This document shows, one piece after another, positions 36,970 through 40,511 of a stretch of 64,000 nucleotides of DNA. The DNA is taken from NCBI GenBank assembly GCA_945861565.1, contig CAMAUY010000011.1, forward strand, positions 6,444-70,443. Direction: 5' to 3'. The DNA comes from Akkermansia muciniphila (GTDB lineage Bacteria > Verrucomicrobiota > Verrucomicrobiia > Limisphaerales > UBA9464). Positions within the stretch are counted from its first letter, which is position 1. Each line of letters begins with the position of its first letter. The notes below the pieces were generated by a model. The model made no database searches, was not told the origin of the DNA, and was given only the letters and a program-made list of their open reading frames with translations. Both the position numbers and the translations under genes were made by a program.

Positions 36970-37545
36970 TTAGCTACCGGGGGAATCCAAGCGCTCACCG
37001 TCCATGGCATAAATTCCGACCAGATATCCATTTTCCTTAATTCCTCCAACTTTCAGTTTGCCAACCAGCGTTACGGCCTGATCCATGACCGGTTTTACGC
37101 CCTTCCCGGTCATTTTGACACTCACCCATTCATTGATCTTCGGGACGGCTCCAAAGCAGCACATGGATTGGTCCCGCATGATCAGGAGTTCCGTCACCAA
37201 ACCTCCTTCCACCTTGAGCGGAAGCATGAACCCCTTGAGTGCGACCCTCTTGCCGTCGAAGTCCTTGACCGACTGCGGAATCTGGCTGTCTCCCTTATCG
37301 GTATCGGAATTTGCCTTGGTTTCATCCGGAACCTCGTACTTGAACGACGATAACTTGTCGAAGCCGACGACGATGAACACCGCCCCAGACGCGTCCTTGG
37401 TTGGAGCTGGGTTGGCATTGACGGGAGATTCGGCAGCACGGGCCAGCAGGCTCGAAAACAGGCCGAGGCCAGCGCCAACGGAGAGAATTGCGACGCCCCG
37501 GGCGATGGCCTGGAGAAAGACTTGGATAAATCCGCCTGAATTCAT
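36970..37545 (-). CDS. DUF3299 domain protein
   Basis: Signal/TM, then GKRVALKGFMLPLKVEGGLVTELLIMRDQSMCCFG...EWV typical of DUF3299. ATG 37545 is preferred. Confidence 0.65.
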   Translation of the reverse strand: MNSGGFIQVFLQAIARGVAILSVGAGLGLFSSLLARAAESPVNANPAPTKDASGAVFIVVGFDKLSSFKYEVPDETKANSDTDKGDSQIPQSVKDFDGKRVALKGFMLPLKVEGGLVTELLIMRDQSMCCFGAVPKINEWVSVKMTGKGVKPVMDQAVTLVGKLKVGGIKENGYLVGIYAMDGERLDSPGS

Positions 37546-37653
37546 GATCCGAACGATACATGACTGCGGAGCCCTTGGGAAGACCCTCACTACAGCAAAT
37601 CGTTGACGGTGCTTCGAGTGCCCCTCACTTTCACCGGACGCGAATACCGCGGC

Positions 37654-39810
37654 ATGAAAACCCTCCTCTTTGTTTGTACTGGCAACACCTGCCGATCGCC
37701 CATGGCGGAAGCCCTGGCGCGGCAGGCGCTGGCCGGCAAGCCCGGCTGGCGCGTGATGTCCGCCGGAGTGGGGGCAATCAACGGTCAGTACCCGAGCACC
37801 CATGCGGTGACGGCCATGCGGCAGCGTGGACTCGATATCTCATCGCACCGGGCACAAATGCTCACGGGCCGGCTGGTTCGAGAGGCGGACTACATATTGG
37901 GTTTGACTCACGGGCACGTCGACGGCGTCTGTCTTCTGTATCCGGAAGCGGCGGAGAAGACGTTTGCACTTCGGGAATTCGACGATTCCCTGGGTGCCCA
38001 TGACAAAGATATTGGGGATCCGATCGGCGGGCCGCTCGAGGGGTACATGGTATGCCGGGACCAGATTGCACAAGGGATCACGACGGCGTTGAAATTCATC
38101 GACCAACAACAATTGGGCGGTTCCAGCGCGAAGGGGGTGGTGTTTGCGGTGGGGGCGGATCATGCCGGTTACGAGCTAAAAGAGGGACTCAAGGCCCGTC
38201 TGATGGAGCTCCGCATTGAAGTGCTCGATTTGGGCACTCATTCGAAAGAATCCTGCGACTATCCGGACTATGCCCATTCGGTCGCCGAGGTCATTGCGGC
38301 GGGAGAGGCGGATTTTGGCTTGCTTTGCTGTGCGACGGGTATCGGCATGAGCATCGCGTCGAATAAGTATTACGGGGTCCGGGCGGCTCTCGTCTTCAAT
38401 GAGGAACTGGCGGCATTGGCGCGCCGTCACAATGACGCGAACATACTGTGTCTTGGGGCGAAAACGACGACTCCTGAACAGGCGGGGAAAATTCTCTCGG
38501 CCTTTCTGAATGCTGAATTTGAAGGCGGCCGTCACGAGCGCCGCGTAAACAAGTTGGAAGTTGAATCTACCATGGCCCACACCCTCGAATCCGTTGATCC
38601 TCAGATCGCCGACGTCATTAAACACGAACGCCGTCGGCAGCAGGAAAACATTGAACTTATCGCGTCGGAGAACTTTACCAGCTCGGCCGTGATGGAGACC
38701 CAAGGAAGCGTACTCACCAATAAGTACGCCGAAGGGTATCCGAAGAAACGCTGGTACGGGGGTTGTGAATTTGTGGACGTTGCCGAGCAATTGGCAATCG
38801 ACCGTGCGAAACAGTTGTTCGGCGCCGAGCACGCCAATGTCCAACCGCATTCCGGCTCCGGTGCCAACATGGCGGTTTATTTTTCCATGCTGAAGCCGGG
38901 AGACAAGATGCTCACCATGGATCTATCCCACGGCGGCCATCTGACTCACGGAAACAAGGCAAATTTCTCAGGGAAATTCTTCGAGATCATCCATTACGGG
39001 GTTCGCCGGGAGGATGAACGGATCGACTATGATCAACTGGCTCGGTTGGCTCGTGAGCATCGGCCCAAAATGATCACGGTTGGGGCGAGCGCCTATTCCC
39101 GGATCATTGACTTTAAGCGGATGGGGGAGATTGCCCGCGAAGTGGACGCGTTGATGCTGGCAGATATCGCTCATATCGCTGGCCTGGTGGCGACGGGACT
39201 GCATCCAAGCCCGGTGGCTCACGCCGATTTCGTCACGACCACCACTCATAAGACCCTGCGCGGTCCGCGCGGCGGCCTGATCTTGTGCCGGGAGAAGTAT
39301 GCGAAAACGATCGATTCGCAGGCGTTCCCTGGAATTCAGGGCGGTCCGCTGATGCATGTCATCGCGGCCAAGGCGGTTTGTTTTCTGGAGGCCTTGCAGC
39401 CCAGTTTCACCGACTATCAGCGGCAGATTATTAAGAATGCCGCCGCGCTGGCGGAAGGGATGAAGCGAAACGCATTCCGATTGGTCAGTGGCGGCACAGA
39501 CAACCACCTCATGTTGGTGGACGTTGGTGCCCGTGGGCTGACCGGCAAGCAGTGCCAACTGATGCTCGACGAAGCGGGCATCACGACCAACAAGAACACG
39601 ATCCCATTCGAAACCCGATCCCCGTTCGAAGGAAGTGGGGTTCGACTCGGCACGCCGGCGGTGACCACGCGGGGCATGAAAGAACCCGAAATGGCGGCCA
39701 TTGCGGATATGATCAGTGAAGTGCTCCTCGACATCGCCAACTCAACAACGGCCCATGAGGTGAGGCAACGTGTCCATGCGCTGACCGCTCGGTTTCCATT
39801 GCCCGACTGA
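37654..39810 (+). CDS. glyA: Tri-domain fusion: LMW protein phosphatase + ribose-5-phosphate isomerase B + serine hydroxymethyltransferase
   Basis: One uninterrupted frame of 718 aa. Residues 1-150: LMW-PTP ([21 protein letters not shown]). Residues 161-303: RpiB ([36 protein letters not shown]). Residues 307-718: SHMT ([31 protein letters not shown]). No in-frame stop at either junction. Confidence 0.8.
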
Positions 39811-39911: not shown

Positions 39912-40511
39912 ATGGTTCGCTACATCCTCCGGGGAATTACTCTGCCGCTGCAGCTGGATTTGCGAACCGGCCGGAACACCCTCGGTCGCGCTCCGACCAA
40001 TGATTTCGGGATCCCGGACGCCTCCGTTTCCAGTTTTCATTGCGAGATCGAAGTGAGCGAAAGCGGGGTGCTGGTGCGAGACCTTCAGTCGACGAATGGG
40101 ACGTTTATCGATGATCGACCGGTGACCGAAGAGGTTCTGCCTCAAGGTCAGATATTGCAGTTAGGCACGGTAACGTTTTGTCTGGAACTGGAGCGGATCG
40201 AAATCCATGTCCCCCAGCCGGTGAATCCTACGGCGGCGGCTCCCCAGGCGGTGGTCCGGGAGGACGGTCAGCTTGCCTGCACCCGCAATACCGCGTTGGT
40301 GGCGACCCACCGATGCACTCAGTGCACGCTTCCATTTCATCAATCATCGCTCCGCGGGGTGCGGATTTCGGGAGGGTCGAAGCGCGCGCTGCTTTTCTGT
40401 CCGGAATGCGATGGTGCCTGCGAAGCGATGCCCGGAATGGTCGAAGGGAAGAAGAAGTCTTTCTTCAGCTCGTTGTCTCAAACGATCCCGCTAGGGTGGC
40501 TAAAGAAGTAG
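39912..40511 (+). CDS. FHA-domain protein with C-terminal Cys-rich (zinc-ribbon-like) region
   Basis: GR...NDFGIPDASVSSFHCEIEV...VLVRDLQSTNGTFID FHA core. C-terminal CTQC...CPEC pairs. Confidence 0.75.
   Translation: MVRYILRGITLPLQLDLRTGRNTLGRAPTNDFGIPDASVSSFHCEIEVSESGVLVRDLQSTNGTFIDDRPVTEEVLPQGQILQLGTVTFCLELERIEIHVPQPVNPTAAAPQAVVREDGQLACTRNTALVATHRCTQCTLPFHQSSLRGVRISGGSKRALLFCPECDGACEAMPGMVEGKKKSFFSSLSQTIPLGWLKK

What the first reader, a model, noticed from the sequence alone, without database searches (positions are those of the whole stretch)
37654..39810. Single 718-aa reading frame fusing LMW phosphatase, RpiB and serine hydroxymethyltransferase
Seen in sequence: there is no in-frame stop between the three domains. 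Junction 1 reads ...[28 protein letters not shown], and the RpiB part lacks its own Met. Junction 2 reads ...[27 protein letters not shown]. The RpiB family normally ends a few residues after RH..R(V/I), so a stop codon appears to have been lost. Only 'ST' separates RpiB from the SHMT Met at 38572. Established knowledge: in Bacillus the separate genes ywlE (LMW arginine phosphatase), ywlF (rpiB) and glyA are neighbours. The fusion therefore preserves a conserved gene order. I do not know of a tri-functional polypeptide of this kind.
Basis: partly seen in the sequence, partly recalled or inferred. Interest (0 to 1): 0.6.

Follow-up and report, generated by a model that had tools for sequence, protein, structure and literature searches.

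The report
Known phosphatase-RpiB-SHMT fusion gene
One real gene here joins a small protein phosphatase, ribose-5-phosphate isomerase B and serine hydroxymethyltransferase into a single 718-residue protein, but this fusion is the normal form of these genes in Verrucomicrobia and was already pointed out in 2008, so it is genuine but not new.

Summary
It holds three complete domains: LMW phosphatase (5-142), RpiB (165-301) and SHMT (311-687).

It is not an assembly error. The same uninterrupted three-domain frame is present in 31 of 31 genomes of the same order (13 families), in 80 of the 80 best loci kept from a scan of species-representative genomes (Limisphaerales/Pedosphaera MAGs, one titled "chromosome: 1"), and in more than 110 protein clusters. 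All catalytic motifs of the three domains are invariant in 114 homologues.

In the held assembly (93% complete) I found no RpiA and no second SHMT or RpiB.

In every sampled relative where I located the break, RpiB-SHMT stays fused and only the phosphatase junction varies. That junction is fused, separated by an in-frame stop, or out of frame, and has changed state at least 6 times on a 66-row tree.

The phosphatase domain is YwlE-like (arginine phosphatase). The genome encodes McsB and a McsA-like protein.

Hou et al. 2008 (PMC2474590) already described this domain composition (Minf_1669); I found no biochemical study. This scan has noted the same fusion 55 times on other DNA.

The parts
37654..39810 (+). 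Whole fusion gene, 718 codons plus TGA stop
   Evidence: Open frame. Full-length uninterrupted matches in 31/31 genomes of the order and in the 80 kept loci.
37654..38112 (+). Residues 1-153: YwlE-like low-molecular-weight phosphatase domain. P-loop C8-T-G-N-T12-C-R14-S15; general-acid motif D122-P-I-G-G.
   Evidence: Pfam LMWPc 5-142. Best solved relative is arginine phosphatase YwlE 4PIC, 1.2e-29, with an identical P-loop. C8, R14 and S15 are conserved in all 110 homologues that cover the N-terminus, and D122 and P123 in all 115.
38113..38139 (+). Linker 1 (residues 154-162, ~QQQLGGSSA): variable, predicted flexible
   Evidence: pLDDT below 50 at 154-160. Between fixed anchors, segment length is 16-25 residues in 114 homologues and only 27% contain a Met. 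Relatives carry a stop plus a new ATG at this position.
38140..38559 (+). Residues 163-302: ribose-5-phosphate isomerase B domain (D169 H170, C226, T228, H259 N260, R293 H294 R297)
   Evidence: Pfam LacAB_rpiB 165-301. TIGR01120 rpiB 167 bits against a cut-off of 138.65. Best PDB match 1O1X RpiB, 1.3e-42, aligned to within two residues of that chain's C-terminus. Motifs invariant or near-invariant.
38560..38583 (+). Linker 2 (residues 303-310, VESTMAHT), containing the relic SHMT Met307 (ATG 38572-38574)
   Evidence: pLDDT below 50 at 300-307. Segment length 10-15 residues; a Met is present in 76 of 114 homologues. No Shine-Dalgarno enrichment upstream of it.
38584..39807 (+). Residues 311-718: serine hydroxymethyltransferase (GlyA) domain, with PLP lysine K533 in [14 protein letters not shown]
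   Evidence: Pfam SHMT 311-687, 4.2e-164. NF000586 636 bits against a cut-off of 335. Foldseek TM-score 0.9 (normalised to target length) and 57-62% identity to bacterial SHMT crystal structures. Catalytic motifs invariant.

Best explanation
This is a genuine, vertically inherited housekeeping gene of a Verrucomicrobiota bacterium (Limisphaerales/Pedosphaerales, 'subdivision 3'). It encodes one polypeptide of roughly 78 kDa (estimated from 718 residues) with three independently folding catalytic modules joined by two short flexible linkers.

- The N-terminal module is a YwlE-type low-molecular-weight phosphatase, most likely a protein phospho-arginine phosphatase that opposes the McsA/McsB arginine kinase encoded elsewhere in the genome.
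- The middle module is RpiB, the only ribose-5-phosphate isomerase found in the held assembly.
- The C-terminal module is SHMT/GlyA, the only copy found.

The gene arose by stepwise fusion of neighbours in a phosphatase-rpiB-glyA string, an order also seen as separate genes in relatives and, from general knowledge, in Bacillus (ywlE-ywlF-glyA). RpiB-SHMT appears to be the older and more stable joint. The phosphatase joined by loss of its stop codon and a spacer of a few codons, a step that has happened or been reversed several times in the phylum.

Shown: the frame, the domains, the conserved catalytic residues, the conservation of the fusion, and the lability of junction 1. Inferred: that all three activities are real, that the product is one chain which probably assembles through the usual RpiB and SHMT dimer interfaces, and that the benefit is fixed co-expression of pentose-phosphate and one-carbon supply, with the phosphatase riding along.
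For: - **Frame and domains:**
- **Conservation:** uninterrupted matches to query residues 1-717 in 31/31 genomes of the order at 65-95% identity; 80 of the 80 best loci kept from a scan of one genome per species, including OZ260084.1, titled 'chromosome: 1'; more than 110 protein clusters of 713-750 aa carrying all three Pfam domains, including cultured Pedosphaera parvula (P0083).
- **Catalytic motifs:** those of all three domains are invariant in 114-115 homologues.
- **Single copy:** no RpiA (PF06026) and no second SHMT or RpiB match in the own genome, which is 93% complete.
- **Structure model:** AlphaFold2 gives three confident domains, with pLDDT below 50 at the two linkers (154-160 and 300-307) and at four SHMT loops.
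- **Relatives with stops:** in 10 of 10 relatives with in-frame stops the stop is at junction 1, followed 1-17 codons later (mostly 2-6) by the ATG of RpiB-SHMT.
- **Bi-domain relatives:** 14 of 21 RpiB-SHMT loci have the phosphatase gene directly upstream in another frame.
- **Tree:** the fused state needs at least 6 changes.
- **Phosphatase identity:** best PDB hits are YwlE arginine phosphatases, with P-loop CTGNTCRS and a DPxGG motif.
- **Kinase partner:** the own genome has McsB (NF002194, 388 bits against a cut-off of 385) beside a McsA-like gene. McsB is in 31/31 relatives and 295/301 of the phylum sample. The one family with no McsB match (f53) lacks a close YwlE-like gene in the three genomes checked.
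Against: - There is no direct evidence of the protein's size or of any activity.
- The residue at the YwlE Thr11 position, said to set arginine versus tyrosine specificity, is Thr here but varies among the fusion proteins (T 51, I 35, V 24), so an arginine-phosphatase role is not uniformly predicted.
- pTM is 0.59, so the model says nothing about how the domains pack.
- The McsA-like protein scores below the NCBIfam cut-off (145.7 against 210).
- The co-absence of McsB and the phosphatase rests on very few independent lineages.
Confidence: 0.9

Rival explanations
1. Assembly or sequencing artefact. Three separate genes were merged in this MAG because indels or base errors removed stop codons at one or both junctions.
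For: The window comes from a fragmented assembly of 262 contigs. Some relatives do have an in-frame stop at junction 1. Reads could not be inspected.
Against: The same uninterrupted frame is present in two other assemblies of the same genus (95% and 89% identity), in 31/31 genomes of the order, in the 80 kept loci from independent projects including a record titled 'chromosome: 1', and in a cultured isolate. The RpiB part has no start codon of its own here, and a Met is present in the junction-1 segment in only 27% of homologues. Linker lengths vary in whole codons.
Confidence: 0.02
2. One gene, more than one protein. Besides or instead of the full chain, translation restarts at the relic Met307 (or near junction 1), so free SHMT (or RpiB-SHMT) is also made.
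For: A Met is kept in the otherwise variable junction-2 linker in 76 of 114 homologues.
Against: The Met is missing in a third of homologues. Anti-Shine-Dalgarno pairing upstream of the junction-2 Met (mean -2.3 kcal/mol) is no stronger than for 1788 other internal Met codons (mean -3.0). No promoter-like site lies inside the gene. The test has little power, because the true start codons of these genes also lack a Shine-Dalgarno signal (mean -0.5).
Confidence: 0.1
3. The N-terminal domain is not an arginine phosphatase tied to McsB. It is an ordinary LMW tyrosine phosphatase, a small-molecule phosphatase, or an arsenate reductase that merely shares an operon history with rpiB and glyA.
For: The specificity position varies (T/I/V) among the fusion proteins. 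LMW phosphatases and ArsC also score: Wzb 6e-16, ArsC 2.4e-14. The 2008 paper read the fusion as a link between the serine and pentose phosphate pathways and did not assign the phosphatase a substrate.
Against: The top solved relatives are YwlE proteins, with an identical P-loop and a DPxGG motif rather than DPYY (the DPYY contrast is from general knowledge). NCBIfam ArsC, Wzb and Etp models are all far below their cut-offs. From general knowledge, thioredoxin-coupled ArsC needs a Cys82/Cys89 pair; this stretch has only one Cys (C92), so the pair is absent. McsB is nearly universal in the phylum, and the family that lacks it also lacks a close YwlE-like gene.
Confidence: 0.3

Closest known systems
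Minf_1669 of Methylacidiphilum infernorum V4 (Hou et al. 2008, Biol Direct 3:26; PMC2474590)
   Same: [quoted passage not shown] This is the same three-domain composition in the same phylum. Uninterrupted three-domain matches at 53-55% identity occur in other families of the window's class, some with 2.3 Mb genomes.
   Different: It comes from a different order. The paper interpreted it only as a link between the serine and pentose phosphate pathways in a methanotroph. The window's organism shows that the fusion is general housekeeping in non-methanotrophic relatives. No biochemistry exists for either.
ywlE-ywlF(rpiB)-(ywlG)-glyA gene string of Bacillus subtilis; ptpB-glyA neighbourhood of Staphylococcus aureus
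   Same: Same three functions in the same order on one strand (Bacillus order from general knowledge; S. aureus ptpB next to glyA from PMC8001253). The same unfused, tightly packed order is seen in Verrucomicrobiota relatives L149 and L150.
   Different: There they are separate genes and separate polypeptides. Here the stops and starts between them are gone.
YwlE / PtpB protein arginine phosphatases (PDB 4PIC, 4KK3, 1ZGG)
   Same: Best sequence match for residues 4-149 (1.2e-29), with identical CTGNTCRS P-loop including the Thr, and a DPxGG acid motif. A McsB kinase and a McsA-like protein are present in the genome.
   Different: It is fused to two metabolic enzymes. Phospho-arginine activity is untested. 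The specificity residue is not conserved across the fusion family.
Two-domain RpiB-SHMT proteins (~555-580 aa) of other Verrucomicrobiota families
   Same: Same junction 2 and the same domains, at 54-64% identity over residues ~160-717. In 14 of 21 sampled loci a phosphatase gene sits directly upstream.
   Different: They lack the covalently attached phosphatase. The difference is a stop codon with a short spacer, or a frame offset, at junction 1.

Membership tests
LMW phosphatase superfamily (Pfam PF01451), YwlE-type arginine phosphatase subgroup | P-loop C-X5-R-(S/T) with the catalytic Cys and Arg | tested here: met
   C8-TGNTC-R14-S15. Conserved in all 110 homologues that have the N-terminus.
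LMW phosphatase superfamily (Pfam PF01451), YwlE-type arginine phosphatase subgroup | General-acid Asp in a D-P motif; YwlE-type DPxGG rather than the DPYY of tyrosine phosphatases (contrast from general knowledge) | tested here: met
   D122-P123-I-G-G aligns with DPFGG of 4PIC and 4KK3. D122, P123 and I124 are invariant in 115 homologues.
LMW phosphatase superfamily (Pfam PF01451), YwlE-type arginine phosphatase subgroup | Thr at the YwlE Thr11 position of the P-loop (reported from memory as the determinant of phospho-arginine specificity) | tested here: inconclusive
   It is Thr12 in the window protein, but T 51 / I 35 / V 24 across the fusion homologues.
LMW phosphatase superfamily (Pfam PF01451), YwlE-type arginine phosphatase subgroup | A cognate protein arginine kinase (McsB, with McsA) in the same genome | tested here: met
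   McsB at G000 C10, 368 aa, NF002194 388.1 bits against a cut-off of 385. The adjacent 167-aa McsA-like ORF scores below its cut-off. McsB is in 31/31 relatives.
LMW phosphatase superfamily (Pfam PF01451), YwlE-type arginine phosphatase subgroup | Hydrolysis of phospho-arginine on proteins | not testable with these tools
   Needs an enzyme assay.
RpiB (TIGR01120 / PF02502) | Score above the curated equivalog cut-off over the full domain | tested here: met
   TIGR01120 167.1 bits against a cut-off of 138.65. NF004051 179.4 against 135. Profile covered 3-140 of 143.
RpiB (TIGR01120 / PF02502) | Catalytic Cys in C-x-T-G-x-G, the Asp-His pair at the N-terminus, the H-N motif and the C-terminal R-H-x-R-R (residue roles from general knowledge of E. 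coli and T. maritima RpiB) | tested here: met
   D169 H170, C226, T228 (Thr in 109 of 115), H259 N260, R293 H294 R296 R297 are present and conserved.
Serine hydroxymethyltransferase (PF00464 / NF000586) | Full-length match above the cut-off | tested here: met
   NF000586 636 bits against a cut-off of 335, profile covered 1-403 of 404. Pfam profile covered 1-399 of 399. Foldseek TM-score 0.9 (normalised to target length) against SHMT crystal structures.
Serine hydroxymethyltransferase (PF00464 / NF000586) | PLP-binding Lys in [11 protein letters not shown], plus the Tyr/Glu loop, the His-stacking motif and Asp (roles from general knowledge) | tested here: met
   H532 K533 R539; Y358 E360 Y368; H429; D504 H507; R664. 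All invariant in 115 homologues.
Verrucomicrobial phosphatase-RpiB-SHMT fusion proteins (type: Minf_1669) | All three domains in one uninterrupted frame, in the order LMWPc-RpiB-SHMT | tested here: met
   The same architecture is precomputed for more than 110 homologous clusters.
Verrucomicrobial phosphatase-RpiB-SHMT fusion proteins (type: Minf_1669) | Translated as a single polypeptide | not testable with these tools
   No conserved internal start, but no protein-level data either.

The most novel reading that the evidence does not exclude
The phosphatase is attached on purpose, not as a passenger. On this reading it acts in cis (or within the oligomer) to keep SHMT and RpiB free of arginine phosphorylation, shielding these single-copy, essential enzymes from McsB marking and Clp-dependent degradation under stress. 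The hint is that the phosphatase-SHMT link persists even where RpiB has left: a phosphatase gene lies directly upstream of glyA in L151, and a direct 575-aa phosphatase-SHMT fusion exists in a 0.9 Mb genome that still has McsB.
Probability: 0.1. Interest if true: 0.55.

Novelty: already known. Interest (0 to 1): 0.2.

Why it matters
For this window it settles an annotation question. The gene should be called as one 718-codon CDS starting at 37654, with three EC-type functions, rather than split or named after a single domain. The nearest database cluster representative (P0002, 702 aa) starts at Met17 and so lacks the phosphatase P-loop. The databases name these proteins only 'ribose 5-phosphate isomerase B' or 'glycine hydroxymethyltransferase'.

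More generally, the family is a natural 'Rosetta stone' linking an arginine-phosphatase-like enzyme with pentose-phosphate and one-carbon metabolism. It is widespread in an abundant soil and freshwater phylum, and I found no biochemical study of it. That makes it a modest opportunity, not a discovery.

Tried and rejected
1. **Read-level check of the junctions.** Conservation across independent assemblies was used instead.
2. **Conserved neighbourhood.** DusB, DUF3299 and the FHA protein next to the gene are kept only in the two same-genus genomes: 2 of 82 loci with enough upstream flank and 2 of 85 with enough downstream flank. The local context says nothing about function.
3. **Internal translation start.** No Shine-Dalgarno enrichment lies before the junction-2 Met relative to other internal Met codons. 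The test is weak because true starts also lack the signal.
4. **Promoter and terminator scan.** There are no promoter-like sites. Seven weak terminator-like hairpins were found against 2.9 +/- 2.2 expected, none convincing and none at a junction.
5. **Fold search for a solved multi-domain relative.** None of the 50 best listed PDB chains covers more than the SHMT part (TM-score normalised to query length at most 0.54).
6. **Arsenate reductase reading of the N-domain.** Rejected, because the ArsC models are far below their cut-offs and the second Cys pair is missing.
7. **Literature.** Searches for rpiB+glyA+fused, Minf_1669, and Akkermansia+RpiB+SHMT found only the 2008 genome paper.
8. **Distribution outside the phylum.** Not examined, because no handle outside the phylum was available.

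Full report
**Observation**

The frame from ATG 37654 to TGA 39808-39810 on the + strand is open for 718 codons. The Met on the SHMT side is residue 307, ATG at 38572-38574.

Pfam finds LMWPc at 5-142, LacAB_rpiB at 165-301 and SHMT at 311-687, each over essentially the whole profile. NCBIfam places the RpiB and SHMT parts above curated cut-offs (TIGR01120 167.1/138.65; NF000586 636/335). An upstream in-frame TTG at 37603 is possible. Homologues, however, begin MK(T/K/S)(I/L)LF(V/I)CTGN, which fixes the start at 37654.

**Artefact or real**

A search of 31 genomes of the same order (13 families, 22 genera) found a match to query residues 1-717 without any stop in every one, at 65-95% identity. 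These include two other assemblies of the same genus.

A scan of one genome per species kept its 80 best loci, all full length and uninterrupted. They are titled Limisphaerales, Pedosphaera or 'Verrucomicrobia subdivision 3', and one record is titled 'chromosome: 1' (OZ260084.1).

The large protein collection holds more than 110 clusters of 713-750 aa with all three Pfam domains, including the cultured Pedosphaera parvula (P0083, 723 aa).

An error shared by this many independent assemblies is not credible.

**State of the three domains**

In an alignment of 114-115 three-domain homologues, every catalytic motif I checked is invariant or nearly so:
- Phosphatase: P-loop C8...R14-S15 and the D122-P123 acid motif.
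- RpiB: D169-H170, C226, T228, H259-N260, R293-H294-x-R296-R297.
- SHMT: Y358/E360/Y368, H429, D504/H507, H532-K533 (the PLP lysine), R539 and R664.

The RpiB part aligns with Thermotoga RpiB (1O1X) to within two residues of that protein's C-terminus. Only about four residues separate the end of RpiB homology from Met307.

An AlphaFold2 model built on the alignment has mean pLDDT 82, with three well-formed domains. Confidence falls below 50 at 154-160 and 300-307, which are the two linkers. It also falls in four SHMT loops that I suspect lie at the dimer interface. pTM is 0.59, so domain packing is not predicted.

Foldseek against the PDB finds only SHMT-sized matches (TM-score 0.9 normalised to target length, 57-62% identity) among the 50 listed. 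None of them spans more than one domain.

**Role in the genome**

The held assembly is 93% complete. It has no RpiA (PF06026) and no second match to the RpiB or SHMT parts. The only other hit is a distant LMW phosphatase paralogue on contig 19. The fusion therefore appears to supply the cell's only ribose-5-phosphate isomerase and only SHMT. This fits the strong conservation.

**How the fusion arose**

In a sample of 300 other genomes from the phylum, at least 149 have RpiB and SHMT in one frame (matches starting near residue 160 or residue 1, reaching 691-718). Uninterrupted three-domain frames occur in at least eight further families of two classes.

Ten relatives whose full-length match contained stops were read directly. 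In all ten the stop ends the phosphatase gene and is followed 1-17 codons later (mostly 2-6) by the ATG of an RpiB-SHMT gene. Junction 2 is fused in all ten.

Of the 21 two-domain loci fetched with flanks, 14 have the phosphatase gene directly upstream in another frame.

A tree of the RpiB-SHMT part (66 rows, chosen from genomes in which junction 2 is fused) needs 7 changes of the three-domain state. Well-supported branches force at least 6. Close sister pairs differ within two families: L121 against L139, and L123 against L142.

Other states also exist:
- Three separate, overlapping or closely spaced genes in the same order (L149, L150).
- A phosphatase gene directly upstream of glyA with rpiB elsewhere (L151).
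- A direct 575-aa phosphatase-SHMT fusion in a 0.9 Mb genome (L148).
- All three genes dispersed (G084).

So the gene string is old, the RpiB-SHMT joint looks the more stable, and the phosphatase joint opens and closes easily.

Both linkers vary in length by whole codons. A Met is present in only 27% of junction-1 segments and 67% of junction-2 segments. Pairing to the anti-Shine-Dalgarno sequence before the junction-2 Met is no better than before 1788 other internal Met codons. The true starts also lack the signal, so this test is weak.

**The phosphatase**

The best solved relatives are the arginine phosphatases YwlE (4PIC 1.2e-29; 4KK3, 1ZGG). They share the P-loop CTGNTCRS and a DPxGG motif.

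The own genome encodes McsB (368 aa, above the NF002194 cut-off) next to a McsA-like zinc-finger protein that scores below its cut-off. McsB is present in 31/31 genomes of the order and in 295/301 of the phylum sample, including the 0.9 Mb genomes.

The six genomes without McsB all belong to one family (f53). In the three of them that I checked there is no match in one and only distant LMW phosphatase hits (at most 32% identity) in two. The same holds for one genome each from two families with very weak McsB matches. This co-absence rests on few independent lineages.

Against a uniform arginine-phosphatase role, the P-loop position equivalent to YwlE Thr11 is Thr here but Ile or Val in about half of the fusion proteins.

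**What is known**

Hou et al. [quoted passage not shown] No other paper in the searchable library mentions Minf_1669 or this domain combination. McsB in Methylacidiphilum is mentioned in PMC8024496. The S. aureus arginine phosphatase gene ptpB lies beside glyA (PMC8001253).

After I had reached this reading, a look-up showed that this scan has noted the same fusion 55 times in at least 51 other genomes, with the same verdict.

**Verdict**

It is an ordinary orthologue of a family that has been in print since 2008 and is present in the databases in large numbers. I found no biochemical study of it. Interest is low for this window. The one open question worth an experiment is whether the phosphatase is a passenger or acts on its fused partners.

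Noticed in passing
L148 280-2007 (-) (G120, a 0.9 Mb single-contig genome of the same class): A 575-aa ORF fuses the LMW phosphatase directly to SHMT with no RpiB domain. rpiB lies about 47 kb away. The genome keeps McsB despite its small size.
   Followed up: partly
L014-L023 (ten phylum relatives): The phosphatase gene and the RpiB-SHMT gene lie in the same reading frame, separated only by one to three stop codons and a few codons. This is the state one mutation away from the three-domain fusion.
   Followed up: yes
G000 contig C10, L013 1150-2782 (-) (outside the window): A McsA-like (167 aa) plus McsB (368 aa) protein arginine kinase pair in this Verrucomicrobiota genome, with no Clp ATPase gene in the 3.5 kb fetched. 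McsB is found in 295 of 301 genomes sampled from the phylum, although the system is usually described for Gram-positive bacteria.
   Followed up: partly
Family f53 of the phylum sample (G103, G109, G130, G139, G184, G235): These are the only six genomes with no McsB match. In the three checked there is also no close YwlE-like phosphatase (no match in one, distant hits in two), while RpiB-SHMT stays fused.
   Followed up: partly
Protein P0002 (cluster representative nearest the window protein): The database gene call is 702 aa and starts at Met17 (MAEALARQ...). This cuts off the catalytic P-loop (C8...R14) of the phosphatase domain and is probably a start-codon miscall.
   Followed up: partly
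window 39912-40511 (+) and 36970-37545 (-): The FHA-domain gene downstream and the DUF3299 gene upstream (divergent, 108-bp spacer) are neighbours of the fusion gene only within this genus: 2 of 85 and 2 of 82 related loci respectively.
   Followed up: yes
Record titles of L033, L035, L038, L040, L061, L064, L084, L096 and others: Several public MAGs that carry a 70-75% identical copy of this verrucomicrobial gene are titled Akkermansia muciniphila, Bifidobacteriaceae, Proteobacteria, Limnocylindria, Acidoferrum and the like. These are probably mislabelled or mis-binned records.
   Followed up: no
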